Assembly: GCA_012797735.1 (NCBI GenBank)
Contig: JAAZOP010000036.1
Span: forward strand, 1 to 38,776
Origin: Myxococcales bacterium
Lineage (GTDB): Bacteria > Myxococcota_A > Polyangia > DRWM01 > JAAZOP01
DNA: 38,776 nt
Reading direction: 5' to 3'
The notes beneath the pieces are model-generated. The model ran no database searches. It was given only the letters and a program-made list of their open reading frames with translations, and had not been told where the DNA came from. The position numbers and the translations under genes are program-made. Below, in pieces: positions 213-30,513 of this stretch; the stretch's first letter is position 1, and each line of letters starts with the position of its first letter.

Positions 213-2369
213 TCAGGCCGATGGATGGGTCGCGTCCGCCTGTGCGGCGCCGGCCGTGCTGTCCGCGGAAGCCTTCGCCTCCGCCCCGGCCTCCGCGTCG
301 GCGGTGCGCTGCGGGAGGCTTTGCATGACCAGCGTCGCGAGGTCGATCACCTGGAGTCTGTCGTCGAGGTCGGCGAGCTTGACCGAGTCCTCGAGCATCT
401 GCTTGCAGTAGGCGCAGCCGGTGACGATCGTGTCGGCGCCGGCCTCGGCGGCCTGGCGGACGCGCAGGTTGTTGATCCGCTCGCCGACCTTGAGGTCCAT
501 CCAGTAGTGGCCGCCGCCTCCGCCGCAGCACAGGCTCTTCTCGTGGTGGTTCCTCATCTCGAGCACGGTGGCGCCGGGGATGGCGCGCAGCACCTCGCGC
601 GGGGAGTCGTAGACCTTCTGGTAGCGGCCGAGGTAGCAGGGATCGTGGTAGACGATGCGGCGGGGCGTTCCGCGTTCCAGGCGCAACTCGCCGCTCCACA
701 GCGCCTCGTGGAGGAACTCGCTGTGGTGCACGACGTTGAAGTCGCCGCCGAACTGCCGGTACTCGTTCTTGAGCACGTTGTAGCAGTGCGGGCAGGAGGT
801 GAGCATCACGCGGAACTTGCGCTGCTTGATCCGCTCGACCTGCGCCTTGGCGATCTCCTGGAACAGCCGCTCCTCGCCCATCACGCGGGCCGGGTCGCCG
901 CAGCAGGTCTCGTCGGCGCCGAGCACGCCCCAGTCGAAGCCGCAGCGGTCGAGGAGCCGGCAGACGTCGGCGGCGATCTTCTGCTTGTTGGGGTCGAAGC
1001 TGGTGCAGCAGCCGATCCAGTAGATGATGTCGACGTCGTCGCCGGGTCCGACGACGCGGGCGCCGAGCTGCTCGAGCCAGGTGACGCGGTCTTCCTGGAG
1101 GCCGAACGGGTTGCCGTTGGCCTCGAGCATCTTCAGCGTGCGGGCCGCTTCGGCCGGCACGCGGCCCTGGATCAGCACCTCGTTGCGCCGCAGCTCCATC
1201 AGGGTGTCGACGTGCTCGATCGCCGCGGGGCAGACCTCCATGCAGGCGGTGCAGGTGCGGCAGAACCAGATGAAATCCTGGTCGAAGGCGTTGCCGACGA
1301 GGCAGGGCGCTTCGGGCGCGGCGGCGTCGGGCTTCGGCGCTTCGCCGCCGTTGCCGCCGCCGTTGGATCCGGCGGGGACGCGGGGGGTGTGCAGCAGTTC
1401 CTTCTGGCCGGCGATCAGGCGGCGCGGGGAGAACGGGTGGCCGGCCTGGGTCGAGGGGCAGATCTCGTCGCAACGGCCGCAGGAGATGCAGGCGTCGGCG
1501 TCGAGCCGCTGTTTCCAGGTCAGGTCGGTGGTCCGCTCGATGCCGACCCGGAAGTTCGCCTCGTCGAAGTCGTCGGCCGTCATCATCGCCTCGATGTCGA
1601 CCCGCGCCAGCTCGCCGCGCGGCTTGAGCTTCTGGAGGAAGACGTCGGTGGGGAGGGCGAGGAGGTGGACGAACTTGGTGTAGGGGATGCTGGCGATCCA
1701 GCCCATCGCGAACACGGTGTGGGTCCACCAGAGGACGCGGTGCATCGCGCTTCCGTCTTCCGGGGAGATGCCCCGCCAGGGGAGGCTGAACAGGAGGCCG
1801 ACGGGGGAGAGCCACGGCCACGGGTCGCCGAGGGTCGCCATGCGCAACCCTTCGGTGACGAAACCGGTGAGCACGAGCAGGGCGATCAGCGCGAGGGCGA
1901 AGCTGTCGGCGGGTCCGGTCTCGAGCGTCTTGGGTTTCCGGACGTAGCGGCGCCAGGCGGCGATGCTCACGCCGACGAGGATCAGCACGCCGGCCAGTTC
2001 GGCGGCCAGCGTGAGGAAGACATAGAGCCAGCCGCGGAAGAGGGTGGTGCCGAAGTCGTAGTCGAGGGCGACGACGGCGGTGACGCCGGCGAGGACCACG
2101 AAGGAGTAGAAGATCAGGCTGTGGAAGAAGCCGGGCAGCCGCGAGTTGCGGACGCGCTTCTGGAAGATCAGTTCGCCGAGCAACAGCTTGAGGCGCTGGC
2201 CCCACGCGGAGAACTTCTCGCCGCGCGGCCGGCCGCGACGCCAGAACTGCACGCGCTGGTAGACGCCCCAGCCGAAGATCGCCAGCGCGGCGAGGAACAG
2301 CACGTACATCGGCCACGCGGGCGAGATGTTCCACATGATCGGACGGGCAGCCTGGGAGAGATCGGGCAT
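213..2369 (-). CDS. Membrane-bound heterodisulfide-reductase-related Fe-S oxidoreductase (HdrF/FadF-like: NarI-like TM domain, 2x[4Fe-4S], two CCG domains)
   Basis: N-terminal hydrophobic helices with His residues (FHSLIF, WTHTV, FVHLL); ferredoxin motifs CISCGRCDEICP and CRTCTACMEVCP; CCG-domain motifs TCCG..SCPHC and HDPCYLGR..LCCGGGGG..GCAYC. Start placed at ATG 2369 because GGAG lies 6 nt upstream; TTG 2384 is the alternative. Confidence 0.9.
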   Translation of the reverse strand: MPDLSQAARPIMWNISPAWPMYVLFLAALAIFGWGVYQRVQFWRRGRPRGEKFSAWGQRLKLLLGELIFQKRVRNSRLPGFFHSLIFYSFVVLAGVTAVVALDYDFGTTLFRGWLYVFLTLAAELAGVLILVGVSIAAWRRYVRKPKTLETGPADSFALALIALLVLTGFVTEGLRMATLGDPWPWLSPVGLLFSLPWRGISPEDGSAMHRVLWWTHTVFAMGWIASIPYTKFVHLLALPTDVFLQKLKPRGELARVDIEAMMTADDFDEANFRVGIERTTDLTWKQRLDADACISCGRCDEICPSTQAGHPFSPRRLIAGQKELLHTPRVPAGSNGGGNGGEAPKPDAAAPEAPCLVGNAFDQDFIWFCRTCTACMEVCPAAIEHVDTLMELRRNEVLIQGRVPAEAARTLKMLEANGNPFGLQEDRVTWLEQLGARVVGPGDDVDIIYWIGCCTSFDPNKQKIAADVCRLLDRCGFDWGVLGADETCCGDPARVMGEERLFQEIAKAQVERIKQRKFRVMLTSCPHCYNVLKNEYRQFGGDFNVVHHSEFLHEALWSGELRLERGTPRRIVYHDPCYLGRYQKVYDSPREVLRAIPGATVLEMRNHHEKSLCCGGGGGHYWMDLKVGERINNLRVRQAAEAGADTIVTGCAYCKQMLEDSVKLADLDDRLQVIDLATLVMQSLPQRTADAEAGAEAKASADSTAGAAQADATHPSA

Positions 2370-2444
2370 GACCGACTCCGCCAACCCCCCGCGCCCGCGG
2401 CGCGGGCCGCCGGAGAAGCGGCGCCGTGGCGGGCGGAACGGGGA

Positions 2445-2933
2445 CTACGCGCCGGCCGGACGCCGCTTGAGCAGCGAGAAGTTGAGCCGCGCCGGACGGC
2501 TCACCCGCGCCGCATACGCCTGCTCGAGCGCCGGGACGGTGCAGACCGGGGCGAGCGGCTTGTAGTTCGGGCGGAAGTAGTGCCGCGCCTGCTGCGAGAC
2601 GCAGTCCCACAGGCAGCTCGTCGCCTCGAGCTTCCGGCCCCGGCGCTGCAACTCCTTCAGGAAGGTCTGCAGGACCGGCCACTGGCGGGAGAGCGACCAG
2701 ACCCGCTCCACCAGCACGCAGTCCCACGTCTCCTCGCAGGCCAGCAACTGCTGGATCCCCGGCCGCGAGATGATGTCCTCGTTGTAGACCTCGTCCTCGA
2801 AGAAGGCCGCGATCTCGATCCCGTTGTCCTGCGCGTACCGCCGGATCGCCTGCTTCTGCGCCTCGCGGCCGATCACCTCGCCCGTCTGCCCCAGCACGAT
2901 GTCACTCACGTACGCGACTGCCTTCTTCGTCAT
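2445..2933 (-). CDS. Serine recombinase/resolvase N-terminal-domain-like protein, catalytically degenerate, no DNA-binding domain (162 aa)
   Basis: Follows the resolvase pattern KAVAY...Q..AIRRYA..NG.EI...FED.....SRPGIQQLL...D.VLV....LSR...L..FL.EL...G.KL. Strong SD (GGAGGAAGGAAG) before ATG 2933. Motif YxRVS reads YVSDI and DRLxR reads WSLSR. Confidence 0.75.
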   Translation of the reverse strand: MTKKAVAYVSDIVLGQTGEVIGREAQKQAIRRYAQDNGIEIAAFFEDEVYNEDIISRPGIQQLLACEETWDCVLVERVWSLSRQWPVLQTFLKELQRRGRKLEATSCLWDCVSQQARHYFRPNYKPLAPVCTVPALEQAYAARVSRPARLNFSLLKRRPAGA

Positions 2934-2982
2934 GGCTTCCTTCCTCCGTTTCTCCCCCGCTCGAAACTCCGCAAGGCTGTAT

Positions 2983-2999
2983 ATCAAGGAACGTGCCAA
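2983..2999 (-). promoter_or_regulatory. Candidate sigma54 (-24/-12) promoter for the recombinase-like/oxidoreductase unit
   Basis: Minus strand reads TTGGCACGTTCCTTGAT against consensus TGGCACG-N4-TTGC(W). GG-N10 spacing is exact and the only deviation is GC->GA at -12. It lies 50 nt upstream of ATG 2933, next to a divergent sigma54-activator operon. Confidence 0.65.
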
Positions 3000-3000
3000 C

Positions 3001-3240
3001 ACGAGCGAATGTCTGTAAACAATTTGAATCAAAGGACTTATTCGATGGCTTTGCGGTGCAACTCAAGACAAACACCAGCCATGTAGCTGTTGGTTATACA
3101 GTCATTCCTTCTGGGATCCGACGGGTAGTGTCTCCGCATTCATGTGTTGTTATATGTAGTTATGATGCACCGATGGCTGCGGACAGAGGTGGTGTGCCGT
3201 TTGAAGATACCTGTGTTCTTGCGATATACATTTGGCTTGA
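3001..3240. promoter_or_regulatory. AT-rich divergent regulatory region with two TGT-N13-ACA motifs (3082-3100, 3212-3230), candidate enhancer sites
   Basis: About 45% GC by hand count (109/240), much lower than the flanking genes. The motifs TGTAGCTGTTGGTTATACA and TGTGTTCTTGCGATATACA both end in TATACA. Confidence 0.45.
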
Positions 3241-3321
3241 CCGGGACGGGGTGAGGGGGTGAGATCGGGGTGCGGGGGTTCTTGCGGCGGTCGCACGGGC
3301 GGCCGGGAGGTCGGCAGGCGG

Positions 3322-5232
3322 ATGAACCTCGAACCGCCGGGTGAGGCGCCTGAGGAGCGGCCGAGTCGTTGGGCGTTGCTGTGGAAGCGGCTGCGGCGGT
3401 TGTCGCTGCGCACGCGGCTCGTGCTCGCCTTCGTGATCCTGATCGTCAGTTCGGCCTCGGCGACGATCCTGATCGGCAGCACGGTTTTCGGGCGGAAGGT
3501 CGACGAGATGGCGCGCGCCAGCGCCGGGCTGTACCGGAAGCTGGGGGCGCAGGTGTTCGACCTCCAGCAGGAGCGGCTGGAGACGGCGCTGCAGTCGCTG
3601 GCGCACGTGACGGACGTGGTGCTGCTGGCGGAGCGGCTACGGGCGCCGGGACGGGCGGAACTGCCGGTCGATTTCGCGGTGCGGTGGGGGCCGTCGGGCG
3701 CGGCGGTGCTGGAGCGGAAGGCGGTGGGCGGGGACCTGGCCTACGGGGTGCGGACGTTGACGGAGCGGGAGCGGCGGGAGATCGACGGGACGGTGCTCGG
3801 CGCGGCGGCGGAGCGCGCCCGCAGGCAGGGGGCGGCGATCACCGGACTGGTCGTCCTGCCGGGCGCGCAGGCCGGCTGGATCGGCCTTCCGCCGCAGGAC
3901 GAGGACCAGCTCCTGGCGGTCTCGGCGGTCCACACCTCCGCCGGCGTCACGCTGCTCGGCCGGCGCCTCAACGACAACGTCGCGCTGCTCCGGCCGATGG
4001 CGGACCTGATCCATCCGAACAGTCCGCGGTTCGGCGCCACGGTGTTCCTCGGGGCGCGGCGCATCGCGACGATCGTCGGGGGCGCCGGGGGGACGGTGGC
4101 GGACCCGCGCGTCGTCCGCACGGTCCTCGAGGAGGGCCAAGTCTACACCGGCGTGGCCGACGTGGCCGGCACCGACTACTACGCCTCGTACCAGCCGCTC
4201 CGCGACCTCGACGGGCGGATCGTGGGGATGTTCGGCGTGGGCGAGGGGATCGGCGAGGATGCCTACGCCGAGATCCGGCGCCGGACGGTGGCGTTGTTCT
4301 CGGGGCTGATCGCCGGCGGGATGATCTTCGGGTTCCTGATGACGTATCTGTTCTCCGTCTGGCTCGTACGGCCGATCCGCGAGCTGGCGGCCGGGATGAG
4401 CCGGGTGGCCGAGGGCGACCTGGGGCACAAGGTCCGGATCGAGTCGGCGGACGAGTTGGGGCGGCTGGCGCGCGCGTTCAACCGGATGGTGCGGGCGGTC
4501 AAGGAGCGCGACAACAAGCTGCAGGAGATGACGGCGGATCGGCTCTCGGCCGTCGAGCGGCAGGTCTCGGTCGGGCGTCTCGCGGCCGGGGTGGCCCACG
4601 AGATCAACAACCCGCTGACGGCGATCCTCTCGCTCTCCAGCCTGCTGCTGAAGAAGGCGCCCCCCGGCGCTCCGGAGCGGGAGGACCTGGAGATCATCGT
4701 CGCCGAGACGACCCGCTGCCGCGAGATCGTCAAGGGCCTGCTCGATTTCGCCCGCGAGCGGCCGATCGCCAAGCGGATCGTCGATCTGCGCGACGTGCTG
4801 CGCGACACGATGCGTCTCACGGCCAAGTACGAGCCGCTCAAGGCGGTGACGCTGGAAACCCGTTTCCCGGACTACCCGCTGTACGTCAACGGCGACCCGA
4901 AGCTCCTGCAGCAGGTGTTCACCAACCTGCTGACGAACGCCGCGGAGGCGTGCGAAGGGCGGGGCGCGGTGCGGCTGACGGCGGCCGAGGACGCCAGCGG
5001 GGGGTTCGTCGAGGTGCGGTTCGACGACACCGGCAAGGGGATCCCGGCCGAGCATCTGCCGCGGATCTTCGAGCCGTTCTTCACGACCAAGGGCGCGCGC
5101 AAGGGCACGGGCCTCGGCCTGTCCGTGTCGCTCGGGATCGTGCAGAAGCACGAGGGCACGATCGATGTCCGCAGCGAGGAGGGGAAGGGGACGACGGTCA
5201 CCGTGACCCTGCCGCGCTGGGAGTGGGTCTAG
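3322..5232 (+). CDS. Membrane sensor histidine kinase (TM-Cache-TM-HAMP-HisKA-HATPase)
   Basis: Two TM segments; Cache-like ATVFLG..RIAT..Y.G.A.V.G..Y..SY.PL.D..G..VG; HAMP (RPIRELA..DELGRLARAFNRM); H-box AHEINNPL; N-box NLLTNA; DTGKGIP; FEPFFTTK; GTGLGL. GGAGGT lies upstream of ATG 3322. Confidence 0.93.
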   Translation: MNLEPPGEAPEERPSRWALLWKRLRRLSLRTRLVLAFVILIVSSASATILIGSTVFGRKVDEMARASAGLYRKLGAQVFDLQQERLETALQSLAHVTDVVLLAERLRAPGRAELPVDFAVRWGPSGAAVLERKAVGGDLAYGVRTLTERERREIDGTVLGAAAERARRQGAAITGLVVLPGAQAGWIGLPPQDEDQLLAVSAVHTSAGVTLLGRRLNDNVALLRPMADLIHPNSPRFGATVFLGARRIATIVGGAGGTVADPRVVRTVLEEGQVYTGVADVAGTDYYASYQPLRDLDGRIVGMFGVGEGIGEDAYAEIRRRTVALFSGLIAGGMIFGFLMTYLFSVWLVRPIRELAAGMSRVAEGDLGHKVRIESADELGRLARAFNRMVRAVKERDNKLQEMTADRLSAVERQVSVGRLAAGVAHEINNPLTAILSLSSLLLKKAPPGAPEREDLEIIVAETTRCREIVKGLLDFARERPIAKRIVDLRDVLRDTMRLTAKYEPLKAVTLETRFPDYPLYVNGDPKLLQQVFTNLLTNAAEACEGRGAVRLTAAEDASGGFVEVRFDDTGKGIPAEHLPRIFEPFFTTKGARKGTGLGLSVSLGIVQKHEGTIDVRSEEGKGTTVTVTLPRWEWV

Positions 5233-5251: not shown

Positions 5252-6706
<1,455 letters not shown>

Positions 6707-6910: not shown

Positions 6911-9397
<2,487 letters not shown>

Positions 9398-18517: not shown

Positions 18518-20206
<1,689 letters not shown>

Positions 20207-20470
20207 GGGCAACTCCGTGGCGGCGCGGGACCGGATCCCCGCGGCGACAGCGGGAGGATCGCCGGTCGGCGGTCCGCCGTCAACGGTCGGTCCGTTCCTG
20301 CAGGGAGCAACAGAGATGTCCGGTGCATGAGCACTCGTGGATGTCCGCTCCTGCGGGCCGGCCGGGCATGCGGGCGGGAGGACCACGGCAGAGCAGCGGT
20401 TGGCCGAGGGAAATGCCGGCCCCCCGGCCGTTCTGTGCTACGGTCGGCGCCGGCGAAGGAGGGCGGCCGG

Positions 20471-21973
20471 ATGACGAGCGAGGCGGAGGCCGGGAAGTCC
20501 CCGGGGTTGTTGCGGCAGTTCCCGCGGACGTTCTGGGTTGCGAACGTGATGGAGCTGTTCGAGCGCGGGGCGTACTACGGCCTCAACGCGCTGCTCGGCC
20601 GCTACCTGACCGACCGGACCGGCGGGGCGCTCGGGTTCTCCGAGGACGAGGCGGGGCTGCTGCAGAGCGTGGTCTACGCGCTGACCTACGTGCTGCCGAT
20701 CCTGGGCGGCGCGCTGGCCGACCGCTACGGCTACCGGCGGATGCTCCTGGTCGCCTTCTCGTTCCTGGCGGCGGGCTACTTCGCCTCGGGGCAGGTCGAC
20801 GGCTACGGCGCCGTGTTCGCGATGCTGCTCGTGATGGCCACCGGCTCGGGGCTGTTCAAGCCGATCATCTCCGGGACGATCGCGCGAACGACCAACGAGC
20901 GGAACTCGGGCTTCGGCTTCGGCGTGTACTACTGGACGATCAACCTCGGGGCGCTCGTGGCGCCCTTCGTGGCCGGGCAGCTCCGGGATCGGTTCGACTG
21001 GAGCGCGGTGTTCACGGCGTCGTCGCTCTACTGCGCGGCGATGCTCCTCCCGACGATCTTCCTGTACCGCGACCCGCCGCGGCCGCCGAGCACCAAGACC
21101 CTGGGACAGGTGCTGGCCGGAGCGCTCGACGCACTGTCCGACGCGCGGTTCATGCTGCTGATCTTCGTCTACTCGTGCTTCTGGATCCTGTACTTCCAGA
21201 ACTTCGGCACGGTGCTGTGGTACCTGCGCGATTTCGTCGATCCCGCGCCGGTCAACGCCTTCTTCGCGCGTCGAGGCCTGGAGTTCCGCTTCGACGCCGA
21301 GCACGTGACGATGATCAACGCGGGGACGATCGTGCTGCTGCAGATGCTGGTGAGCCGGGTGGTCAAGAACGTCCGGCCGCTGCCGACGATGGTGGCGGGG
21401 ATCCTGATCGGCTCGCTGGGGTTCCTGTGCCTCGCCCTGTCTCGCGAAGCGTGGGTCTTCATCCTCGGCATCGCCGTGTTCTCCGTCGGCGAGATGACCT
21501 GCCACCCCAAGTACCTCGGGTACATCGGGCAGATTGCGCCGGCGGACAAGAAGGCCAACTACATGGGCTACGCCTTCCTCTACGGCGTGGTCGGCTCGCT
21601 GGTGGGGGCCAACGTGGGCGGCGAGGCGTACAGCGCGCTGCTCGCGCCGCTGAAGGGCGATCCGAACGCGGGACCGACCCTGCGCTGGTTCTGGCTCGTC
21701 TTCGCGGTGCTCGGGGTCGCCACCATGCTCGGGCTGCTGGTCTACGACCGCCTGTTCGGCCGGGACGCTCCGGAGACGCGACGCCGCGCCGGCCGGGTGG
21801 TGATGGCGATCTACGTGCTGCTGCTGGCCGGCGCGCCGGCGCTTCTGGCATGGGTCTGGTCCGTCCGGGGCGCGCTGCCGGTCAAGACCGCGATCCAGGC
21901 CGGGATCATGATCCTCCTCGGCGGCGGCGGCCTCGCGATGCTGCGCCGCGGGCGGGTCAGAGCAGGAAGCTGA
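20471..21973 (+). CDS. MFS transporter, POT/PTR2 peptide:H+ symporter family
   Basis: ELFERGAYYG (ExxERxxYY-type), GGALADRYG, GSGLFKP, YWTINLGA; SD AAGGAGG. Confidence 0.9.
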   Translation: MTSEAEAGKSPGLLRQFPRTFWVANVMELFERGAYYGLNALLGRYLTDRTGGALGFSEDEAGLLQSVVYALTYVLPILGGALADRYGYRRMLLVAFSFLAAGYFASGQVDGYGAVFAMLLVMATGSGLFKPIISGTIARTTNERNSGFGFGVYYWTINLGALVAPFVAGQLRDRFDWSAVFTASSLYCAAMLLPTIFLYRDPPRPPSTKTLGQVLAGALDALSDARFMLLIFVYSCFWILYFQNFGTVLWYLRDFVDPAPVNAFFARRGLEFRFDAEHVTMINAGTIVLLQMLVSRVVKNVRPLPTMVAGILIGSLGFLCLALSREAWVFILGIAVFSVGEMTCHPKYLGYIGQIAPADKKANYMGYAFLYGVVGSLVGANVGGEAYSALLAPLKGDPNAGPTLRWFWLVFAVLGVATMLGLLVYDRLFGRDAPETRRRAGRVVMAIYVLLLAGAPALLAWVWSVRGALPVKTAIQAGIMILLGGGGLAMLRRGRVRAGS

Positions 21974-22664: not shown

Positions 22665-24718
22665 CACTGCACCCCGAAATGGAGGAACGGGAAGCCGAAC
22701 GGCACGTACCGCAGCACGGTCCACGCCTCTTCGAACATCGGCACCACGAACGAGACATCGCCCCAGATCGATTCCCCCATGATCCGAATACCGTAGATCA
22801 GGGTCCAGACCTCTCCGTAGGGGAAGACGTCGTCCCCCTCCTCATCGATCAGCCCCGGCGCCAGCAGCTCCGCGTTGAGCTTGACCATGCGCGACACGCG
22901 CCAGCTCCCGCCGACGCTCGGCAGGAACAGGACGAACGTGTACCGGTCGACCTCTTCGTTCGTGTCGTACCCGCCGGCGCTCCGGTCGAAGATCGTGGCG
23001 CCCCAGATCCCGAGCGCCAGGTTGAGGAAGGCGTCCGGGGAGCCGATGGTCAGCGCGGGGGTGGCGCCCCACACCAGGACCACGAGATCGATCTCGGGGT
23101 AGAGGAACCAGCAGCCGAGCTGGGTGTTGAGCCCGAGCGAGACGCTGTCGGCGACCTGCACGGTGAACCGCGCCGTGGGCGTCACGCCGACGTTCATGAT
23201 CGGGACGGTGACCGCCGCGCCCAACTCGACGTGCGGATTGAGGGTGTAGTCGAGGTTCCACATTCCGACGTCCGTGGTGCGGATGCTCCAGGTGCGCTCG
23301 CGCCGGAGCAGCGCGGTGGAAGTCCAGATCACGCGGCCGGGGTCCGGGTCCGCATAGGGCCAGCCGGCCGGCTCCTCCGGCCCCCCGGCCGGTTGCTCGA
23401 CTCCGGCCGGTCCCTCCAGCCCCTCCGGGATCGGCACCGGCGGCGGCACGGGCGGCAACGCTCCCGGCCCGGGAGCGGCCAGCCGGAGCGCCTCGCCGAG
23501 GTCCAGGACCATCCGCGAGAACTCGGAGCCCGTGGCCAGGTCCGGCGCGAAGGCGGCGCTGCGACGGCAGTCGTCGACCGCCCACTGCAGCCGGTCGAGC
23601 GCCGGGTTGCCGTTCTCCCGCCACGCCTCGAGCACCTCCTCGCGGGCGAGGAGGTTGAGGGGCATGCCGAGGCGCCGGAGGTCGCAGATCACGGTGTTCC
23701 AGTCGAGCATCGCCGCGAGGAGGGGGGCGAGGCCCGAGGCATCGGCGGCGTAGTTGCGCCGCAGCCGGCCGGTGCGCGTTCCGGCGTCGGCGGGTGCCGC
23801 CACGGCGCACGCGGTGGAGGGCGCCCCCGGCAGCGGCACCGCCGGACCCTCGGGTCGCAGCCAGCGGATGTCGATCGCCCCGGCGACGGCGGCGGCCAGG
23901 TCGTCGGTCGGCGCGGCGGCGCGCAGCGCCGCGAAGCCGGCCGCGGTCTCCACGGTTCGCATCGCCTCGGCCAGCGCGGAAGTCGGCAGCACGTACGCCA
24001 CCTCGGGGTCGTCCCGGTGCCGCATCGCCACCACGCCGACCCAGCGCCCGGCCTCGTCCAGCACCGGCGCGCCGAGCACTCCGGGCGCCGAGCGGACCGC
24101 GATCTCGCAGAGGCCGTAGACCCGCGGCTGCCGCACGGTCGCCTCGACCGGCCGCCCCGCCGCCCCCTGCGCGCCCGGGGTCACGGCAAAGACGGCGAGC
24201 CGCTGCCCGACCGTCACCGGGACGTCGGCGGCGGAGAGCGTGGCCGCCGCGGCGGGACGCGGCGCGGGGAGCAGGAACGCGACGTCGGTCGCCGGCGGCA
24301 GCGACACCCCGGCCGGTACCAGCTCCGGGGCGCCGGGCATCGCGAGCAGGACGAACGGGGCCCCGGCGACCACCGTGCGGGCGGTGACCGTCACGCCGTC
24401 GCCCGTCAGCGTGACGCCGGTGGCGACCGTGGCGACGGGGATGCCGAGCCGCTCGTCGCCGAACGGCTCGGTGCCCACGCTGCGCGGGACGATCACCGCC
24501 ACCGCGGCCGTCGTGGGCGGCACGATCGGCTCGCCGTCGTCCGGTTCCGGAACCGGTTCCACGGCCGCGGGCGGGAGAGGCGGCGCATCGGGGGGCGGGA
24601 TCGGCTCGCCGGGCGGCGCGATCTGCGCCGCCGCCGCCGCCGGCAGACAGAGCGGCAACAGGGCGATCGCGAGCCGAGCCGTCCGGGATGTGCCGGGAAG
24701 CCGCCGCCGCCGCTGCAT
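22661..24718 (-). CDS. Exported protein: degenerate trypsin/HtrA-like domain plus C-terminal probable beta-barrel
   Basis: Signal peptide ending AAA-Q; Pro-rich linker; trypsin-like TGVTLTGDGVTVTARTVV / DVAFL / PGVLGAPVLDEAGRWVGV; second Pro-rich linker; aromatic amphipathic C-domain ending FLHFGVQW. Start at 24718 or 24727. Confidence 0.65.
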   Translation of the reverse strand: MQRRRRLPGTSRTARLAIALLPLCLPAAAAAQIAPPGEPIPPPDAPPLPPAAVEPVPEPDDGEPIVPPTTAAVAVIVPRSVGTEPFGDERLGIPVATVATGVTLTGDGVTVTARTVVAGAPFVLLAMPGAPELVPAGVSLPPATDVAFLLPAPRPAAAATLSAADVPVTVGQRLAVFAVTPGAQGAAGRPVEATVRQPRVYGLCEIAVRSAPGVLGAPVLDEAGRWVGVVAMRHRDDPEVAYVLPTSALAEAMRTVETAAGFAALRAAAPTDDLAAAVAGAIDIRWLRPEGPAVPLPGAPSTACAVAAPADAGTRTGRLRRNYAADASGLAPLLAAMLDWNTVICDLRRLGMPLNLLAREEVLEAWRENGNPALDRLQWAVDDCRRSAAFAPDLATGSEFSRMVLDLGEALRLAAPGPGALPPVPPPVPIPEGLEGPAGVEQPAGGPEEPAGWPYADPDPGRVIWTSTALLRRERTWSIRTTDVGMWNLDYTLNPHVELGAAVTVPIMNVGVTPTARFTVQVADSVSLGLNTQLGCWFLYPEIDLVVLVWGATPALTIGSPDAFLNLALGIWGATIFDRSAGGYDTNEEVDRYTFVLFLPSVGGSWRVSRMVKLNAELLAPGLIDEEGDDVFPYGEVWTLIYGIRIMGESIWGDVSFVVPMFEEAWTVLRYVPFGFPFLHFGVQW

Positions 24719-24809
24719 CGGACGCATCGTCGCACGAAACGGCCGCGGAGGTCCACCGTCGGCGCGGCGCGGCCGGGGGCGGCGAAGGCGCCGGGCTTCC
24801 ATCGGTGGT

Positions 24810-24837
24810 TTGCCGCGGGGCTGAAACGAGGTATTCT
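24810..24837 (+). promoter_or_regulatory. Candidate sigma70-type promoter for the repeat lipoprotein
   Basis: TTGCCG-16 nt-TATTCT upstream of ATG 24902. Confidence 0.3.
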
Positions 24838-24901
24838 GCACGAGCGCCCGGGACGAAACACGGCGTCGGGCCGTCCTCGCCGGGCCGGGAGGGACCGGAA
24901 G

Positions 24902-26059
24902 ATGAAGCGCAACGCGATCCTGTGGACGCTGGCCGCGGCGGCGGGGTTGCTCGGAGCCGCGGGTTGCGGCGACGACACCTCGACCCCGACCGAGGACTGC
25001 ACGAACGACACCGACGACGACGGCGACGGCCAGGCCGACTGCAACGACTCCGACTGCACGGCGCACCCGCACTGCACGTCGGTGACCTCCGAGGTCGACT
25101 GCGACGACCTGCGCGACGACGACGGCGACGGGCGGACCGACTGCGACGACTCGGACTGCGCCGGAGCCGCGGTGTGCGTGCCGCGGGAGACCTCGTGCCG
25201 CAACGGGGTCGATGACGACGGCGACGGGCGGACGGACTGCGAGGACGACGAGTGCGACGGGCGCCCGCCGTGCGGGGTGACGGAGGAGACGAACTGCGAG
25301 GACGCCGTGGACGACGATGGGGACGGGCAGACGGACTGCGACGACGGGGACTGCGACGACGACCCGGCCTGCGGGGGAACCCCCGAGACGGACTGCGCGA
25401 ACGCCGTGGACGACGACGGGGATGGGCAGACGGACTGCGACGACGGGGACTGCGCGGCGGACGCACACTGCGTCCCGGAGAGCGACTGCAACGACACGGT
25501 GGACAACGACCTGGACGGGGCGACGGACTGCGACGACAGCGATTGCGCGGCGGCAGCGGTGTGCCTGCCGGAGAGCGACTGCGGGAACACGGTGGACGAC
25601 GACCTGGACGGGGCGACGGACTGCGACGACAGCGACTGCGCGGCCGACCCGGCGTGCTACGTCACCGGCAACGACAGCTGCACGAGTCCGCATGTGCTGC
25701 CGGACGATCCGAACGGGACGTGGCGGGGCGCGATCGATGCGCTGGCCAGCGACCACCGCGGCACTTGCGGCGGCAACGGCGGCCGGGACGCCGTGTTCCA
25801 GTTCACCACGACCGCCCGGGCGACGATCACCGCCTCGTTGGAGGGGAGCACGTTCGACACGGTGCTGTACCTGCGCAGCGGCGCGTGCACGGTTCCGGGC
25901 ATGACGGAAGAGGCGTGCAACGACAACGCCTCGGCCGGGGTCACCTGGTCGCGGATCAGCACGACCGAGAATGCCGGCACGTACTGGCTCGTCGTGGACG
26001 CCGCCTCCGCCGCCACGACGACCGGCACGTACGTCCTGACGATCACGGTCACGCCCTGA
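24902..26059 (+). CDS. Lipoprotein with seven Cys/Asp-rich putative metal (Ca2+)-binding repeats and a C-terminal PPC-like domain
   Basis: MKRN..LLGAAGC lipobox; 7 copies of E-x(1-2)-C-x4-DxDxDGxxDCxDx(D/E)C-x5-C; C-domain GNDSC..FDTVLYLR..C..ACND..GTYWLVVD..GTYVLTI. Confidence 0.88.
   Translation: MKRNAILWTLAAAAGLLGAAGCGDDTSTPTEDCTNDTDDDGDGQADCNDSDCTAHPHCTSVTSEVDCDDLRDDDGDGRTDCDDSDCAGAAVCVPRETSCRNGVDDDGDGRTDCEDDECDGRPPCGVTEETNCEDAVDDDGDGQTDCDDGDCDDDPACGGTPETDCANAVDDDGDGQTDCDDGDCAADAHCVPESDCNDTVDNDLDGATDCDDSDCAAAAVCLPESDCGNTVDDDLDGATDCDDSDCAADPACYVTGNDSCTSPHVLPDDPNGTWRGAIDALASDHRGTCGGNGGRDAVFQFTTTARATITASLEGSTFDTVLYLRSGACTVPGMTEEACNDNASAGVTWSRISTTENAGTYWLVVDAASAATTTGTYVLTITVTP
24992..25657 (+). 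repeat. Seven coding tandem repeats of about 93-99 bp
   Basis: Units 4/5 (period 99) and 6/7 (period 93) are nearly identical at DNA level. Confidence 0.9.
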
Positions 26060-26108: not shown

Positions 26109-26639
26109 CTACTTCTTGCGCGGGTTGGCGGTGTGCACGTTGCCGGCGGTGTCGCTGATCGACAGCAGCAGGTTCCGCTCGTAGATCAGGTGCGGTCGCG
26201 CCTCGACGGGGCGTGGGTGCAGTCCGGTGTCCATGCGGATCGCGTCGCACGGGCAGGCCTCGACGCACAGCCCGCACGACACGCAGCGCAGTTCGTCGAT
26301 CCAGAACTCCACCGGGTACTTCTCGACGTGGGCCAGCGGGTGCTCCGGCGGGTACTCGCCGGCGACGATGTGGATGCACTCGGCGGGGCAGGCGGTCTGG
26401 CAGCACAGGCAGGCGGTGCAGCGGGGGGCGCCGTCGTCGCGCTGGGTGAGGCGGTGGAGGCCGCGGAAGCGCGGCGGGTAGGGCCGGCGCTGTTCGGGGT
26501 AGAGCAGCGTGACGGTGTCGCGGCGTCCGAAGACGTTGCGAAAGAAGTGGCGCAGCGTGACGCCCAGGCCGCGCACCGTCTCCGGGACGTACGACTGCTC
26601 CCAGAGGTTGCGGTCGGGACGGCGGACGACGTACGGCAT
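26109..26639 (-). CDS. nuoI: NADH-quinone oxidoreductase subunit I
   Basis: YPEQRR...RFRGLHRL, CTACLCCQTACP, CVSCGLCVEACPCDAI. Confidence 0.93.
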   Translation of the reverse strand: MPYVVRRPDRNLWEQSYVPETVRGLGVTLRHFFRNVFGRRDTVTLLYPEQRRPYPPRFRGLHRLTQRDDGAPRCTACLCCQTACPAECIHIVAGEYPPEHPLAHVEKYPVEFWIDELRCVSCGLCVEACPCDAIRMDTGLHPRPVEARPHLIYERNLLLSISDTAGNVHTANPRKK

Positions 26640-26649
26640 GCCCGGCCTC

Positions 26650-27774
26650 CTAGCGCAGCGCCGCCAGCACGACGGCGGTGACGGCGATGTTGCCCAGCGA
26701 GAGCGGCAGCAGGACCTTCCAGCCGAGGTCCATCAGCTGGTCGTAGCGGAAGCGCGGCAGGGTCCAGCGCAGCGCCATCTGCAGGAAGACCATCGCGCCC
26801 ACCTTGACGGTGAACCCGAGGAGCTGGACCAGCACGACGACCCCGTGCGGCCAGTTCCAGACCCAGGTGTCGAGGAACGGCAGATCGACGTGCAGTCCGT
26901 CGGCGAACAGGAACGGAACGTCCCACCCGCCGAGGAAGAACACGGTGAGGAGGATCGCGAGGACGACGATTTCCATCAGCTCGCCGAGGAAGAACATGGC
27001 GAACTTCATGCCCGAGTACTCGAGGAAGTAGCCGGCGACGATCTCCGACTCGCCCTCGGGCAGGTCGAAGGGCACGCGCTTGCTCTCGGCGATCCCGGCG
27101 ACCAGGAACAGCAGGAACGCCAGGGGCTGCACCAGGATGCCCCAGACGTGCTGGTGCTGCCACAGGACCATCTGCTCGATGCGCAGGGTGCCGAAGACGA
27201 GGATGCAGCCGACGAGCGAGGCGCCGAGGGTCACCTCGTAGGAGATCATCTGGCTCGCGGCGCGCAGCGAGCCCAGCAGCGAGAAGCGGTTGTCCGAGGC
27301 GGCGCCGGCGAGCACCGCGCCGACGACGCCGGTGCCGGCGATGGCCAGCACGAACAGGAGGCCGACGTCGATCGTCGCGACCTGCAGCGTCGTGGCCCAG
27401 GGGCCGGAGAACAGCGGGCCCTCGTGGTTGACGGCGCCGAGATGGGCGAAGTCGAGCGTGGGGCCGAAGGGGACGACGGCGAAGGTGACGACCACCGGGA
27501 AGAAGGCGAGGATCGGGGCCAGGGCGTGCAGCAGCCGGTCGGCGCGCCGCGGGATGAAGTCCTCCTTGACCATCATCTTCAGACCGTCGGCGAGGATGTG
27601 GATCAGGCCCCACAGGCGGAACCGCCCGAGGTTGGCCCGGTGGGGGCCGACGCGGTCCTGCATCATCGCCGACAGCCGCCGTTCGACCCAGACCATCAGC
27701 GCGCCGCCGGTGAGGATGAACAGCACGAAAGCGACGATCTTCGCGACGGTCATCCAGACGAAGAAGGCGTTCAT
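26650..27774 (-). CDS. nuoH: NADH-quinone oxidoreductase subunit H
   Basis: ERR.SA.MQDRVGP, ADGLK..KED, LRAASQMISYE, AESKRVPFDLPEGESE, RWTLPRFRYDQLM..GWK. Confidence 0.96.
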   Translation of the reverse strand: MNAFFVWMTVAKIVAFVLFILTGGALMVWVERRLSAMMQDRVGPHRANLGRFRLWGLIHILADGLKMMVKEDFIPRRADRLLHALAPILAFFPVVVTFAVVPFGPTLDFAHLGAVNHEGPLFSGPWATTLQVATIDVGLLFVLAIAGTGVVGAVLAGAASDNRFSLLGSLRAASQMISYEVTLGASLVGCILVFGTLRIEQMVLWQHQHVWGILVQPLAFLLFLVAGIAESKRVPFDLPEGESEIVAGYFLEYSGMKFAMFFLGELMEIVVLAILLTVFFLGGWDVPFLFADGLHVDLPFLDTWVWNWPHGVVVLVQLLGFTVKVGAMVFLQMALRWTLPRFRYDQLMDLGWKVLLPLSLGNIAVTAVVLAALR

Positions 27775-29300: not shown

Positions 29301-29310
29301 CTCCCGGCTC

Positions 29311-30513
29311 CTAGCGATCGCACTCGCCGCCGATCATGTTGATCGACCCGAACGTCGGAATGATGTCGGGCAACAGCCGCCCGCGGACCAGTTCCGGCAG
29401 CGCCTGCAGATTGGCGAAGCAGGGGGGCCGGACGCGGCACTTGTGCGGCCGCCCGCCGCCCGTCGAGACGATGTAGAACCCGAGCTCGCCGTTCGCCGCC
29501 TCCGTGTAGGAGTAGACCTCGCCTGCCGGAACCTGGATCCCCTCGGTGACGATCTTGAAGTGCTGGATCGTCCGTTCGATCGTGGTGTAGGTCTGGAGCT
29601 TGTCGGGGAGGATGACGCCGAGGTCGTCGGGGACGGCGATCGGGCCGTCGGGAAGCCGGCGCAGCGCCTGGTCGATGATGCGCGCGCTCTGGCGGATCTC
29701 CTCCAGGCGCACGACGAAGCGGTCGTAGTTGTCGCCGCGGCTGCCGACGGGGATGTCGAAGTCGAACTGGTCGTAGACGAGGTAGGGGTGGATCTTGCGC
29801 ACGTCGTAGGCCACGCCGGTGGAGCGCAGGCAGGGGCCGGTCCAGCCGTACGCCAGCGCGCGCTCGGGGGAGATCGCGCCGACGTCCATCGTGCGGTCCA
29901 TGAACACGCGGTTGCGCAGCAGCAGCTTCTCGGAGTCCTCGACCGCGGCCAGCGTCTTCTGCAGCGCCGCGCGCAGCCGCTCGTCGAACCCCTCCGGCAG
30001 GTCGTGCCGCAGGCCGCCGATGCGGCAGAACGAGTGGGTGACGCGGGCGCCGGTGACCTCCTCCAGGAGTTCGAACAGCCATTCGCGGGCCTTGACGAGG
30101 TAGAGGAAGACGGTGAACGCGCCGAGTTCCATCGCCATGGCGGCGTTGCAGACGCAGTGGTCGCAGATCCGGGCGACCTCGCCGAGGATCACGCGCAGGT
30201 ACTGGCAGCGGGGCGGGACGGTGATCCCGAGCAGTTTCTCGACGGCGAGGGCGTAGCCGATGTTGTTGAGCAGCGGGGAGGCGTAGTTCAGGCGGTCGGT
30301 GTAGGGGAAGACCTGGGTCCACGTCCCCGCCTCGCACTCCTTCTCGAAGCCGCGGTGCAGGTAGCCGATCTGGACGTCGCAGTCGACGACCTGCTCCCCG
30401 TCGAGCCGCAGCACGCAGCGCACCGTGCCGTGCATCGCCGGATGGCTCGGCCCCATGTTCAGGACCATCGGGTCCGCCGGCAGGACCAGTTCCTCTTCCC
30501 GGTACTCTTCCAT
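29311..30513 (-). CDS. nuoD: NADH-quinone oxidoreductase subunit D
   Basis: NMGPSHPAMHG, GYLHRGFEK, DRLNY, GPCLRSTG, EAANGELG, C-terminal GGECDR. Confidence 0.96.
   Translation of the reverse strand: MEEYREEELVLPADPMVLNMGPSHPAMHGTVRCVLRLDGEQVVDCDVQIGYLHRGFEKECEAGTWTQVFPYTDRLNYASPLLNNIGYALAVEKLLGITVPPRCQYLRVILGEVARICDHCVCNAAMAMELGAFTVFLYLVKAREWLFELLEEVTGARVTHSFCRIGGLRHDLPEGFDERLRAALQKTLAAVEDSEKLLLRNRVFMDRTMDVGAISPERALAYGWTGPCLRSTGVAYDVRKIHPYLVYDQFDFDIPVGSRGDNYDRFVVRLEEIRQSARIIDQALRRLPDGPIAVPDDLGVILPDKLQTYTTIERTIQHFKIVTEGIQVPAGEVYSYTEAANGELGFYIVSTGGGRPHKCRVRPPCFANLQALPELVRGRLLPDIIPTFGSINMIGGECDR

What the first reader, a model, noticed from the sequence alone, without database searches (positions are those of the whole stretch)
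2445..2933. A 'dead' serine-resolvase domain kept as a stand-alone, Cys-containing protein
Seen: a 162-aa ORF with a strong SD and no frameshift or stop. It keeps the resolvase scaffold (KAVAY, Q..AI..YA, FED, RPGI..LL, LSR) but has lost the chemistry: YxRVS reads YVSDI, so the Arg is gone and the nucleophile position is Ile unless a 2-residue deletion is invoked; the D..SG loop reads DEVYN; DRLxR reads WSLSR. There is no HTH or recombinase domain, and there are five Cys (CEETWDC, CLWDC, VCT). Known: serine recombinases need this Ser and the Arg residues for strand exchange. Inference: an exapted, non-catalytic resolvase fold that may act as a regulator, redox/metal sensor or accessory protein rather than a mobile-element enzyme.
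Basis: partly seen in the sequence, partly recalled or inferred. Interest (0 to 1): 0.75.

Follow-up and report, generated by a model that had tools for sequence, protein, structure and literature searches.

The report
Inactive resolvase-fold partner of respiratory enzyme
A small protein built only from the catalytic fold of a DNA-cutting resolvase, but without its cutting residues, is conserved across several bacterial phyla beside a membrane iron-sulfur enzyme, so a mobile-element enzyme seems to have been recruited to a job other than moving DNA.

Summary
Window 2445-2933 (minus strand) encodes a 162-aa protein that passes Pfam Resolvase and folds like serine-recombinase catalytic domains. 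It has no nucleophile Ser, lacks two catalytic Arg and the Asp, and has no long E-helix or DNA-binding domain.

It is not a decaying orphan. It belongs to an undescribed family: 41 representative clusters at E<=1e-30 and 43 genome loci, all MAGs. None of the 59 domains examined restores the catalytic motifs. dN/dS is 0.19-0.26 against the closest relatives.

In 36 of 43 loci the gene sits directly upstream of an EMO/EtfD/HdrDE-type membrane heme-b/Fe-S oxidoreductase. It usually lies behind a sigma54-type promoter and is divergent from an sCache histidine kinase and an NtrC-type regulator.

Copies occur in tandem, fused two or three times, or fused to a receiver domain. Only one of the five Cys (Cys111) is conserved; every oxidoreductase-linked locus keeps it in at least one copy.

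Best reading: an exapted pseudo-recombinase that acts as a cytoplasmic partner or effector of the oxidoreductase, under two-component control. A complex prediction gave only weak support (0.58; best control 0.00). The biochemical role remains inferred.

The parts
2445..2933 (-). Gene for the 162-aa protein that consists only of a resolvase fold ('RES'); the stop codon is 2445-2447
   Evidence: Family alignments. dN/dS.
2943..2947 (-). Shine-Dalgarno GGAGG, 9 nt before the ATG
   Evidence: Read from the sequence. The block is conserved in L001 and L002.
2983..2998 (-). Sigma54-type promoter element TGGCACGTTCCTTGAT (-24 GG; the -12 element has GA in place of GC). It starts 65 nt upstream of the ATG.
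   Evidence: It is a conserved block in an otherwise variable spacer. Matches of at least 9/11 lie upstream of the first RES gene in 33 of 43 loci, against 50 of 1720 random 350-nt windows.
3076..3100 (-). Conserved upstream block (TGTATA...GCTACA) containing a short palindrome; a candidate activator-binding site
   Evidence: Conserved columns. The only 'terminator-like' hit (3089-3076) falls inside it. Its function is inferred.
3225..3242 (-). Second conserved upstream block (GGTCAAGCCAAATGTATA); a candidate activator-binding site
   Evidence: The coordinates were computed by me from that alignment. Its function is inferred.
213..2384 (-). Downstream gene in the same operon: an EMO/EtfD/HdrDE-type oxidoreductase. 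It has a NarI-like membrane domain, two 4Fe-4S motifs and two CCG (non-cubane cluster) domains. Its true start is probably the ATG at 2369.
   Evidence: Pfam and NCBIfam. Match to PDB 9OJN at E 1.2e-94. Alignment A2. No terminator-like site between the two genes.
3259..5232 (+). Divergent sensor histidine kinase (sCache_3_3, HAMP, HisKA, HATPase_c). Its true start is probably the ATG at 3322.
   Evidence: Homologues align from residue 22 or 58 onward.
5252..6706 (+). NtrC-type sigma54-dependent response regulator (Response_reg, Sigma54_activat, HTH_8)
   Evidence: Synteny.

Best explanation
The gene encodes a member of an undescribed family of small proteins (about 145-170 aa) that consist only of the serine-recombinase catalytic fold. 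In this family the nucleophile Ser, two catalytic Arg and the catalytic Asp are replaced. The E-helix is cut short and no DNA-binding domain is present. It is therefore not a recombinase.

The gene is co-transcribed from a sigma54-type promoter with an EMO/EtfD/HdrDE-type membrane heme-b/Fe-S oxidoreductase. The neighbouring sCache histidine kinase and NtrC-type regulator probably control that promoter.

Most likely mechanism (inferred): the protein docks on the cytoplasmic HdrC/HdrB-like module of the oxidoreductase as an accessory or regulatory partner. It would use its remodelled former active-site pocket (Y8, D11, Q26, E46-D47, R57, E76-R77, W79, R83, W109-D110-C111, S113-Q114, R117). The long subfamily would also use a C-terminal docking peptide ([RK]-P-x-x-L-x-F). 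In this way the two-component system would tune electron flow between a cytoplasmic donor, probably the acyl-CoA dehydrogenase/ETF route, and the quinone pool.

Shown: the fold, the loss of catalytic residues, family conservation, synteny, and the promoter motif.
Inferred: binding to the oxidoreductase, any role of Cys111, and the physiological pathway.
For: Fold and inactivation.
- PF00239 scores 38.2 bits against a gathering score of 23.3.
- The AlphaFold2 model has mean pLDDT 85.8.
- Foldseek against the PDB gave 21 hits at E<=1e-3. All those listed, save one labelled a putative DNA-binding protein (3lhk), are serine-recombinase catalytic domains, for example Bxb1 at 2.2e-6 and TP901-1 at 2.4e-6.
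- The catalytic positions are substituted in all 59 domains.

Real family.
- 26 clusters.
- 2401, 75 and 41 representative proteins at E<=1e-3, 1e-10 and 1e-30.
- dN/dS 0.19 and 0.26 against L001 and L002.

Link to the oxidoreductase.
- A homologue lies 14-368 nt downstream on the same strand in 36 of 43 loci. One further locus ends 315 nt after RES, and six have other neighbours.
- The loci come from MAGs labelled Myxococcales/Deltaproteobacteria, Acidobacteriota, Krumholzibacteriota, Nitrospirales, Bdellovibrio and Bradymonadales.
- Genes downstream of the oxidoreductase vary, so the conserved unit is RES plus oxidoreductase.
- There is no sigma70-like promoter and no terminator between the two genes.

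Control.
- A sigma54-like motif lies upstream in 33 of 43 loci, against 2.9% of random windows. It is conserved in the window, L001 and L002.
- The kinase and the regulator both lie divergently upstream in 25 of 43 loci.

Cys111.
- It is present in 25 of 25 single-copy oxidoreductase-linked genes and in at least one copy in 36 of 36 linked loci. The only loci with no Cys111 at all (L032, L041) are unlinked.

Complex prediction: weak support.
- Score 0.58 (runs 0.56, 0.61, 0.58); best of 3 controls 0.00.
- The mark was reached by 58 of 80 solved complexes and 2 of 110 mismatched pairs. At 0.60 or under it was reached by only 7 of those 80 and by both mismatches that passed.
- The runs agree in at least 74% of contacts, and the partner's pLDDT is at least 71.
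- My own alignments were used, so the calibration counts hold only roughly.

Pathway hints.
- In L004 the RES gene is followed by an acyl-CoA dehydrogenase instead.
- EMO/EtfD takes electrons from ETF in fatty-acid oxidation (preprint 10.64898/2026.08.18.745454; abstract, sections 5, 8 and 10, and passages of the Introduction).
Against: - Six of the 42 loci that can be judged have RES without an adjacent oxidoreductase: L004, L030, L031, L032, L040 and L041.
- No RES-oxidoreductase fusion appears among the 150 best representative hits. The only fusions are RES repeats and receiver-RES.
- The receiver-RES fusions, and loci where RES stays with the kinase and regulator but without the oxidoreductase (L004, L040), fit a signalling role at least as well.
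- S. aciditrophicus EMO was purified as a single 80-kDa band and works with ETF alone, so enzymes of this type need no such partner.
- The complex score is in the band the tool calls more often wrong than right unless the pairing was already likely.
- No interface was returned and no model coordinates were available. The clustering of conserved residues in one pocket is inferred from alignment to recombinases, not measured.
Confidence: 0.5

Rival explanations
1. Signalling adaptor. The resolvase fold is an output or connector module of the two-component system. It would act on the regulator, the kinase or other targets, for example as a feedback inhibitor. It is merely co-regulated with the oxidoreductase and does not bind it.
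For: - Receiver-RES fusions occur in six representative clusters (P0061, P0072, P0076, P0085, P0087, P0088) and in L040.
- The receiver domain of L040 is 48% identical to the receiver domain of the window's regulator.
- RES stays next to the kinase and regulator without the oxidoreductase in L004 and L040.
- RES ORFs end in Ala in 36 of 56 cases, against 17 of 178 neighbouring ORFs. All 16 that end in 'AA' include the short subfamily. This resembles a C-terminal degradation signal for ClpXP-type proteases, which is my recollection and was not tested, and it would suit an unstable regulator.
Against: - RES-oxidoreductase adjacency (36 of 43 loci) is more frequent than RES-kinase/regulator adjacency. 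It persists in L006, L017 and L023, which have at least 5.8 kb of upstream sequence and no kinase or regulator.
- Cys111 retention tracks linkage to the oxidoreductase.
- The complex prediction with the oxidoreductase gave a weak pass with controls at 0.00.
Confidence: 0.25
2. Redox substrate or carrier. Cys111 is a redox-active thiol, or a persulfide carrier, and RES is the dedicated protein substrate of the HdrD-like module. The relationship would be analogous to DsrC and DsrMK.
For: - Cys111 is kept in every oxidoreductase-linked locus and is often lost elsewhere: L032, L041, and four of the seven receiver fusions inspected.
- The oxidoreductase has both complete CCG motifs. C495 stands where M. 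smegmatis EMO has T539, and C534 where S. aciditrophicus EMO has G535. An extra invariant Cys460 is also present.
- Small thiol carriers serving HdrB/HdrD/DsrK-type sites are an established theme (recalled).
Against: - Only one Cys is conserved, and it sits at the start of a helix in the folded core, not on a flexible arm.
- The oxidoreductase keeps the EMO-type His (H533, equivalent to H583 and H534), which according to the preprint fills the thiol-binding site of the proximal cluster.
- Paralogues in linked loci do without the Cys.
Confidence: 0.1
3. Re-armed enzyme or ligand sensor. The remodelled pocket keeps several Arg, gains two Trp and a Cys, and would bind or act on a phosphate-bearing small molecule.
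For: - An unusually large set of polar residues is invariant or nearly so: Y8, Q26, D110, S113, Q114 and R117 in 59 of 59 domains; D47, R77 and R83 in 57 of 59; E76 in 56; R57 and W79 in 55; W109 in 57.
- Many of them sit at positions that form the recombinase active site (plus established knowledge of Tn3 and gamma-delta resolvase).
Against: - Most of these residues are ancestral and are also conserved in true recombinases (the 'others' table), so they may be structural.
- The C111-x5-R117 spacing that recalls phosphatase P-loops is inherited from a T-x5-R in recombinases, and it lies in a predicted helix.
- No family, ligand or fold match other than recombinases was found.
Confidence: 0.1
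4. A decaying or still-active site-specific recombinase of a mobile element.
For: Databases name relatives 'recombinase family protein' or 'DNA invertase Pin-like'. PHROGs gives weak hits to integrase (24 bits) and DNA invertase (17.7 bits).
Against: - The catalytic residues are absent in all 59 domains.
- There is no DNA-binding domain.
- Selection is purifying.
- Chromosomal synteny is conserved across phyla.
- There are no convincing flanking repeats.
- The phage collection gave no hit, and the plasmid collection gave one weak hit at 30.8% identity.
- PADLOC gave no hit.
Confidence: 0.02

Closest known systems
Serine-recombinase catalytic domain (Pfam PF00239; for example TP901-1 integrase N-terminal domain 3BVP, Bxb1 9IU2, IS607-family TnpA 6DGC, gamma-delta/Tn3 resolvase, Gin)
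   Same: The alpha/beta fold is the same (Foldseek probability 1.0, TM-score about 0.5-0.65). Conserved Tyr, Gln, Asp, Arg-Pro-Gly, the last Arg of D-R-L-x-R, and the D-x-x-S-x-x-x-R stretch at the start of helix E are kept.
   Different: The nucleophile Ser is Ile or Val. The first Arg is Ser, Cys or Ala. The D-R pair is W followed by A, S or C. Helix E is cut to about 9 residues, or to a kinked 10+21 residues in the short subfamily. There is no HTH, Recombinase or zinc-ribbon domain and no mobile-element context.
Small resolvase-domain proteins without a DNA-binding domain that keep the catalytic motifs (P0095, P0143, P0098, P0104, P0122)
   Same: They form the sister group in a FastTree of 201 domains (support 0.71). 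They are of similar size and share the W-D/E-x-x-S/A-Q-x-x-R stretch.
   Different: P0095 and P0143 still have Y-x-R-x-S and (D/E)-R-L-x-R. Their genomic context is unknown. Support for the family clade itself is low (0.43).
EMO/EtfD (ETF:(methyl)menaquinone oxidoreductase) and HdrDE: the family of the neighbouring gene, not of RES
   Same: The neighbour has the same three-part architecture and matches M. smegmatis EMO (9OJN) at E 1.2e-94. It keeps the EMO-type His in C-P-H-C.
   Different: Characterised EMOs work with ETF and have no resolvase-like partner. Here both CCG motifs are complete, an extra invariant Cys is present, and no etfAB genes were seen in the flanks sampled.
DsrC with DsrMK (recalled analogy only)
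   Same: A small cytoplasmic protein with a conserved Cys is encoded beside a quinone-linked membrane complex that has an HdrD-like module.
   Different: The fold is unrelated. There is one Cys in the core rather than two on a C-terminal arm. No sulfur-metabolism genes were seen nearby.

Membership tests
Serine recombinase (resolvase/invertase/integrase) | Resolvase catalytic-domain fold | tested here: met
   PF00239 at 38.2 bits against a cut-off of 23.3. The best Foldseek hits in the PDB are recombinase catalytic domains.
Serine recombinase (resolvase/invertase/integrase) | Nucleophile Ser in the Y-x-R-x-S motif | tested here: not met
   The aligned position is I12. In 59 domains it is I in 46, V in 9, T in 2, N in 1 and A in 1, and never S.
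Serine recombinase (resolvase/invertase/integrase) | Catalytic Arg of Y-x-R and the Asp-Arg of D-R-L-x-R | tested here: not met
   Position 10 is never R, position 79 is W in 55 of 59 and never D, and position 80 is never R. Only the last Arg (R83) is kept, in 57 of 59.
Serine recombinase (resolvase/invertase/integrase) | Long E-helix for dimer/tetramer formation and DNA contact | tested here: not met
   The model has helix 111-119 and then no secondary structure to residue 162. The short subfamily has helices 114-123 and 127-147 at low confidence.
Serine recombinase (resolvase/invertase/integrase) | DNA-binding domain (HTH, or Recombinase plus zinc ribbon) | tested here: not met
   No such Pfam domain, and the protein ends at residue 162.
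Serine recombinase (resolvase/invertase/integrase) | Association with recombination sites or a mobile element | tested here: not met
   Only low-identity chance repeats were found. The neighbours are housekeeping genes. Chromosomal synteny is conserved. The phage collection gave no hit and the plasmid collection one weak hit.
EMO/EtfD/HdrDE-type oxidoreductase (neighbouring gene 213-2384) | NarI-like membrane domain, two cubane 4Fe-4S motifs, and two CCG (non-cubane cluster) domains in one chain | tested here: met
   Nitrate_red_gam, Fer4_8 and two CCG domains. 9OJN at E 1.2e-94. The Cys ligands are invariant in 31 sequences.
EMO/EtfD/HdrDE-type oxidoreductase (neighbouring gene 213-2384) | Electron transfer from ETF to menaquinone | not testable with these tools
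   No etfAB genes were seen in the window or in the sampled flanks. This needs biochemistry.
Response-regulator output domain | Fusion to a phospho-receiver domain | tested here: inconclusive
   The window protein is not fused. Relatives are fused: six representative clusters and L040.
Cys-x5-Arg phosphatase / arsenate reductase / rhodanese-type P-loop enzymes | Cys-x5-Arg loop between a strand and a helix, in one of those folds | tested here: not met
   C111-x5-R117 is present, but it lies in a predicted helix of a resolvase fold. The spacing is inherited from T-x5-R of recombinases. Cys is replaced in 13 of 59 domains.

The most novel reading that the evidence does not exclude
A mobile-element enzyme fold has been re-armed as a dedicated protein redox partner. 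Cys111 of the resolvase-fold protein would carry a thiol, disulfide or persulfide that the HdrD-like module of the quinone-linked oxidoreductase reduces or oxidises. The result would be a DsrC/DsrMK-like pair built from a former recombinase, switched on by a sigma54 two-component system in uncultured anaerobes of several phyla.
Probability: 0.12. Interest if true: 0.85.

Novelty: new variant of a known kind. Interest (0 to 1): 0.62.

Why it matters
Serine recombinases are known as DNA-rearranging enzymes of mobile elements and phase-variation switches. Six full-text searches found no paper that describes a conserved, catalytically disarmed family consisting only of this domain. A review of recruited mobile-element genes mentions only active serine invertases and resolvases in the passages I read.

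If the family really is a partner or effector of an EMO/EtfD-type oxidoreductase, three things follow:
- It would be a clear case of a recombinase fold exapted into energy metabolism or its regulation.
- It would flag a misannotation ('recombinase family protein') that inflates counts of mobile elements in MAGs.
- It would point to an unrecognised accessory component of an enzyme class that is central to anaerobic fatty-acid oxidation.

The family is so far seen only in MAGs, so a heterologous test would be the first experimental handle.

Tried and rejected
- NCBIfam gave only a far sub-threshold CcrB match: 20.6 bits against a cut-off of 900.
- PADLOC gave no hit for RES or the oxidoreductase. 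PHROGs gave only weak integrase and invertase hits.
- The ESM Atlas search returned only clusters named 'Resolvase, N terminal domain' and no structure search.
- The phosphatase-like Cys-x5-Arg idea was rejected. The stretch is helical in the model and inherited from T-x5-R of recombinases.
- A 'Cys-rich metal sensor' was rejected, because four of the five Cys vary.
- A conserved third operon gene was sought and not found. Genes after the oxidoreductase differ from locus to locus: MFS/Atg22, M19 peptidase, OPT, PIN, PilZ and others (31 ORFs sampled from 15 loci, not all of the 189 neighbour ORFs listed).
- The 583-aa protein after the receiver-RES gene of L040 has no Pfam match.
- Flanking recombination sites were sought and not found.
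- Model coordinates are not exposed, so the clustering and exposure of conserved residues could not be measured.
- Only one complex job was allowed. RES with the regulator, RES homodimers and RES heterodimers were not tested.
The genomic context of the receiver-RES proteins, of the multi-RES proteins P0028 and P0029, and of the sister-group proteins therefore stayed unchecked, apart from L029, L032 and L040.
- Supplements of the bioRxiv preprint (EMO phylogeny, Supplementary Table 2 and Figs 13-14) could not be seen. They may already classify this oxidoreductase clade.
Full report
**The observation.** The ORF is on the minus strand, from ATG 2933 to the stop at 2445-2447, and gives 162 aa with no internal stop.
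- A GGAGG lies 9 nt upstream of the ATG, and homologues begin at the same M-x-K-K-A. The ATG is therefore preferred to the TTG at 3032 that the ORF listing reports.
- Pfam Resolvase is passed at 38.2 bits (cut-off 23.3), but only for profile positions 17-97 of 145. NCBIfam has nothing above threshold.
- An AlphaFold2 model built on 27 family sequences has mean pLDDT 85.8. It shows the strand/helix order of a resolvase catalytic domain, a last helix at 111-119, and an unstructured tail from 121 to 162.
- Foldseek against the PDB gives 21 hits at E<=1e-3. All those listed, save one labelled a putative DNA-binding protein (3lhk), are serine-recombinase catalytic domains: Bxb1, TP901-1, IS607-type TnpA, Sin, PhiC31 and others.
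- A profile alignment to TP901-1 integrase pairs the recombinase Y-x-R-x-S with Y8-V9-S10-D11-I12, and D-R-L-S-R with W79-S80-L81-S82-R83.
The five Cys (66, 72, 107, 111, 131) are there.

**It is a family, not a wreck.**
- The word-indexed search found 26 clusters of 146-179 aa at 37-90% identity.
- The profile search of 1.84 billion representatives found 2401, 75 and 41 proteins at E<=1e-3, 1e-10 and 1e-30. Ordinary large serine recombinases appear only from about E 1e-12.
- The genome scan returned 43 loci, all from MAGs. They are labelled Myxococcales/Deltaproteobacteria, Acidobacteriota/Vicinamibacteria, Krumholzibacteriota, Nitrospirales, Bdellovibrio, Bradymonadales, Thermodesulfobacteriota (ORM2a) and one Paceibacterota.
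- In 59 domains (the window plus 58 from the loci), Y8, Q26, D110, S113, Q114 and R117 are invariant.
  - Position 12 is I, V, T, N or A, and never Ser.
  - Position 10 is never Arg.
  - Position 79 is Trp in 55 and never Asp.
  - Position 80 is never Arg.
- Of 148 domain instances in a wider set, not de-duplicated, none has R10+S12 or D79-R80.
- Ser10 is not a displaced nucleophile. It varies (S 26, C 18, A 9, T 3, and G, Y, N once each), and A or G occurs in single-copy genes.
- Nei-Gojobori dN/dS against the two closest relatives is 0.19 and 0.26. Against L003, L008 and L010 the ratios are about 0.45-0.47, with dS approaching saturation.
- Comparison with true recombinases shows what is ancestral and what is new.
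  - Ancestral: Tyr, Gln, Asp47, Arg57, Arg83, and the D-x-x-S-x-x-x-R stretch at the start of helix E.
  - Family-specific: D11, I12, E76, W79, W109, C111 and Q114.
- A FastTree of 201 unique domains was built on 125 profile columns. Rows with more than 35 gaps, identical cores, and locus domains starting after residue 40 were dropped.
  - The family, including the receiver fusions, falls in one clade of 129 tips with weak support (0.43).
  - Its sister group is five small proteins (support 0.71). At least two of them, P0095 and P0143, still carry Y-x-R-x-S and (D/E)-R-L-x-R.

**Context.**
- The gene 60-75 nt downstream on the same strand (213-2384) has a NarI-like membrane domain, two 4Fe-4S motifs and two CCG domains. 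It matches the M. smegmatis EMO/EtfD structure 9OJN at E 1.2e-94.
- From the residue alignment and the 2026 preprint on S. aciditrophicus EMO (abstract, sections 5, 8 and 10, and passages of the Introduction):
  - it keeps the EMO-type His (H533 in C-P-H-C) that fills the thiol site of the proximal non-cubane cluster;
  - unlike the two characterised EMOs, it has both CCG motifs complete (C495, C534);
  - it has an extra invariant Cys460.
- Divergently upstream lie an sCache_3_3/HAMP histidine kinase and an NtrC-type sigma54 activator.
- Nothing in the 38.8-kb window looks mobile. It holds glycogen phosphorylase, a hybrid kinase, prolyl oligopeptidase, complex I subunits, Lnt and RNase III.
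- There are no convincing flanking repeats. The plasmid collection gave one weak hit at 30.8% identity and the phage collection gave none.

**Synteny.**
- A homologue of the oxidoreductase follows RES on the same strand, 14-368 nt away, in 36 of 43 loci (31 complete, 5 cut by the contig end).
- L029 ends 315 nt after RES. L004, L030, L031, L032, L040 and L041 have other neighbours.
- The kinase and the regulator both lie divergently upstream in 25 of 43 loci.
  - L025 has them divergent from its second RES copy.
  - L033 and L040 have them upstream on the same strand.
  - L007 and L029 show one of the two before the contig ends.
- Five loci with at least 5.8 kb of upstream sequence have neither: L006, L017, L023, L030 and L041.
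- Genes after the oxidoreductase differ from locus to locus (31 ORFs sampled).
- A sigma54-type element lies 65 nt upstream of the ATG in the window (TGGCAC-N5-TTGA, at 2983-2998).
  - Matches of at least 9/11, including the GG, lie within 350 nt upstream of the first RES gene in 33 of 43 loci. The control is 50 of 1720 random 350-nt windows from the same loci.
  - In the window, L001 and L002 the element is a conserved island in a variable spacer, together with two further conserved blocks.
- No sigma70-like promoter and no terminator lie between RES and the oxidoreductase.
- The conserved unit is therefore kinase and regulator on one side, and a sigma54 promoter, RES and the oxidoreductase on the other.

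**Variation that bears on function.**
- (a) Two subfamilies exist.
  - The long form, which includes the window protein, has a disordered tail carrying [RK]-P-x-x-[LIMFP]-x-[FLS]. This occurs in 31 of 56 ORFs, with near variants in L010, L022 and L024.
  - The short form of about 145 aa has a Cys at position 10 and a C-terminal helix at 127-147 (model pLDDT 85.4).
- (b) RES occurs in two or three copies in 14 of 43 loci. It is fused twice or three times into one chain in L032, L029, P0029 and P0028. This suggests that it works as an oligomer.
- (c) Receiver-RES fusions exist in six representative clusters and in L040, where the fusion follows the kinase and the sigma54 regulator. The L040 receiver is 48% identical to that of the window's regulator.
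- (d) In L004 the gene after RES is an acyl-CoA dehydrogenase.
- (e) Cys111 tracks the link to the oxidoreductase.
  - It is present in 25 of 25 single-copy linked genes and in at least one copy in 36 of 36 linked loci.
  - Second copies often lose it.
  - The only loci with none (L032, L041) are unlinked.
  - Four of the seven receiver fusions inspected lack it.
- (f) RES ORFs end in Ala in 36 of 56 cases, and in Ala-Ala in 16, against 17 of 178 neighbouring ORFs.

**Mechanism.**
- The strongest single signal is the RES-oxidoreductase gene pair, so I take physical partnership as the best explanation.
The verdict was weak support.
  - The score was 0.58 (runs 0.56, 0.61, 0.58), and the best of three controls was 0.00.
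  - The mark was reached by 58 of 80 solved complexes and 2 of 110 mismatched pairs. At 0.60 or under it was reached by only 7 of those 80 and by both mismatches that passed.
  - The runs agree in at least 74% of contacts, and the partner's pLDDT is at least 71.
  - My own alignments were used, so these counts hold only roughly, and no interface was reported.
- With synteny as a prior this adds a little, no more.
- The receiver fusions, the C-terminal Ala and the loci without the oxidoreductase point to a regulatory character.
- The two lines fit together if RES is the effector through which the two-component system acts. Its synthesis is controlled in the stand-alone form, and its activity is controlled by phosphorylation in the fused form.
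- A thiol or persulfide carrier role for Cys111 is attractive. It is weakened by the EMO-type His in the partner and by the position of the Cys in the folded core.
- Characterised EMOs need no such protein. The role is therefore accessory or regulatory rather than essential to the core electron path.

**Comparison and novelty.**
- By fold the protein belongs to the resolvase superfamily. It fails five of the six defining features of a serine recombinase that I tested, so it should not be annotated as one.
- Six full-text searches found no description of an inactive or exapted family consisting only of this domain. The passages I read in a review of recruited mobile-element genes mention only active serine enzymes.
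- I rate it a new variant of a known kind: a pseudo-recombinase family embedded in a conserved, sigma54-controlled module with an EMO-type oxidoreductase.
- Everything beyond fold, residue loss, conservation, synteny and promoter motif is inference that needs the experiments listed.

Noticed in passing
window 2983-2998, 3076-3100, 3225-3242 (minus strand): A sigma54-type -24/-12 element and two further blocks are conserved with L001 and L002 in an otherwise variable spacer. The spacer has about 52% GC in a genome of about 70% GC. The two blocks are likely activator-binding sites for the divergent NtrC-type regulator.
   Followed up: partly
L029:3780-5219, L032:1812-2774; proteins P0028 (479 aa), P0029 (320 aa): Three or two RES domains are fused in one polypeptide. 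Fourteen of 43 loci carry two or three RES copies, which suggests an oligomeric working unit. Second copies are often degenerate: Cys111 is lost, and in L043 W79 as well.
   Followed up: partly
L040:6488-7450; proteins P0061, P0072, P0076, P0085, P0087, P0088: These are fusions of a receiver domain to the RES domain. In L040 the fusion follows a homologous kinase and sigma54 regulator, and is itself followed by a 583-aa protein with no Pfam match (L040:7505-9256).
   Followed up: partly
C-termini of RES ORFs in window and L001-L043: 36 of 56 RES ORFs end in Ala, and 16 end in Ala-Ala, against 17 of 178 neighbouring ORFs. This may be a C-terminal degradation signal. That reading is recalled and was not tested.
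   Followed up: partly
L004:6669-7151 and 7450-9264: Here RES is followed by a 604-aa acyl-CoA dehydrogenase instead of the oxidoreductase. The same MAG has a separate RES-oxidoreductase pair (L006). This hints at a link to the acyl-CoA/ETF/EMO electron route.
   Followed up: partly
window 213-2384 (minus strand), residues C459-C460, C494-C495, H533-C534: The EMO-like neighbour has both CCG motifs complete and an extra invariant Cys460. It also keeps the EMO-type His. M. smegmatis EMO has Ala and Thr at two of these Cys positions.
   Followed up: partly
window 2369/2384 and 3259/3322: The mechanical ORF starts are probably too long. Homologues suggest ATG 2369 for the oxidoreductase (M-P-D-L-S...) and ATG 3322 for the kinase.
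   Followed up: partly
proteins P0095, P0143, P0098, P0104, P0122: A sister group of small resolvase-domain proteins (114-188 aa) has no DNA-binding domain. At least two still carry the catalytic Y-x-R-x-S and (D/E)-R-L-x-R motifs. Their context and function are unknown.
   Followed up: no
L031 (JBAZWP010000016.1, labelled Paceibacterota, 30% GC): A RES homologue sits among small ORFs, a DNA methylase and a SPASM-domain protein, with no oxidoreductase or kinase. The context and taxon are outliers. This could reflect gene transfer or a binning artefact.
   Followed up: no
window 18536-21973, 22842-25466, 34387-35817: Long ORFs with high GC3 have no Pfam match at E<=1e-6.
   Followed up: no
window 26109-31068 (minus strand): Complex I genes lie in a row: 30-kDa, 49-kDa, NuoG-like, NuoH and a 4Fe-4S subunit. 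No NuoE/NuoF-like genes were seen between the 49-kDa and NuoG-like genes.
   Followed up: no
all 43 loci: Every genome locus carrying the family is a metagenome-assembled genome. No cultured isolate appeared among the 185,579 species representatives scanned.
   Followed up: no
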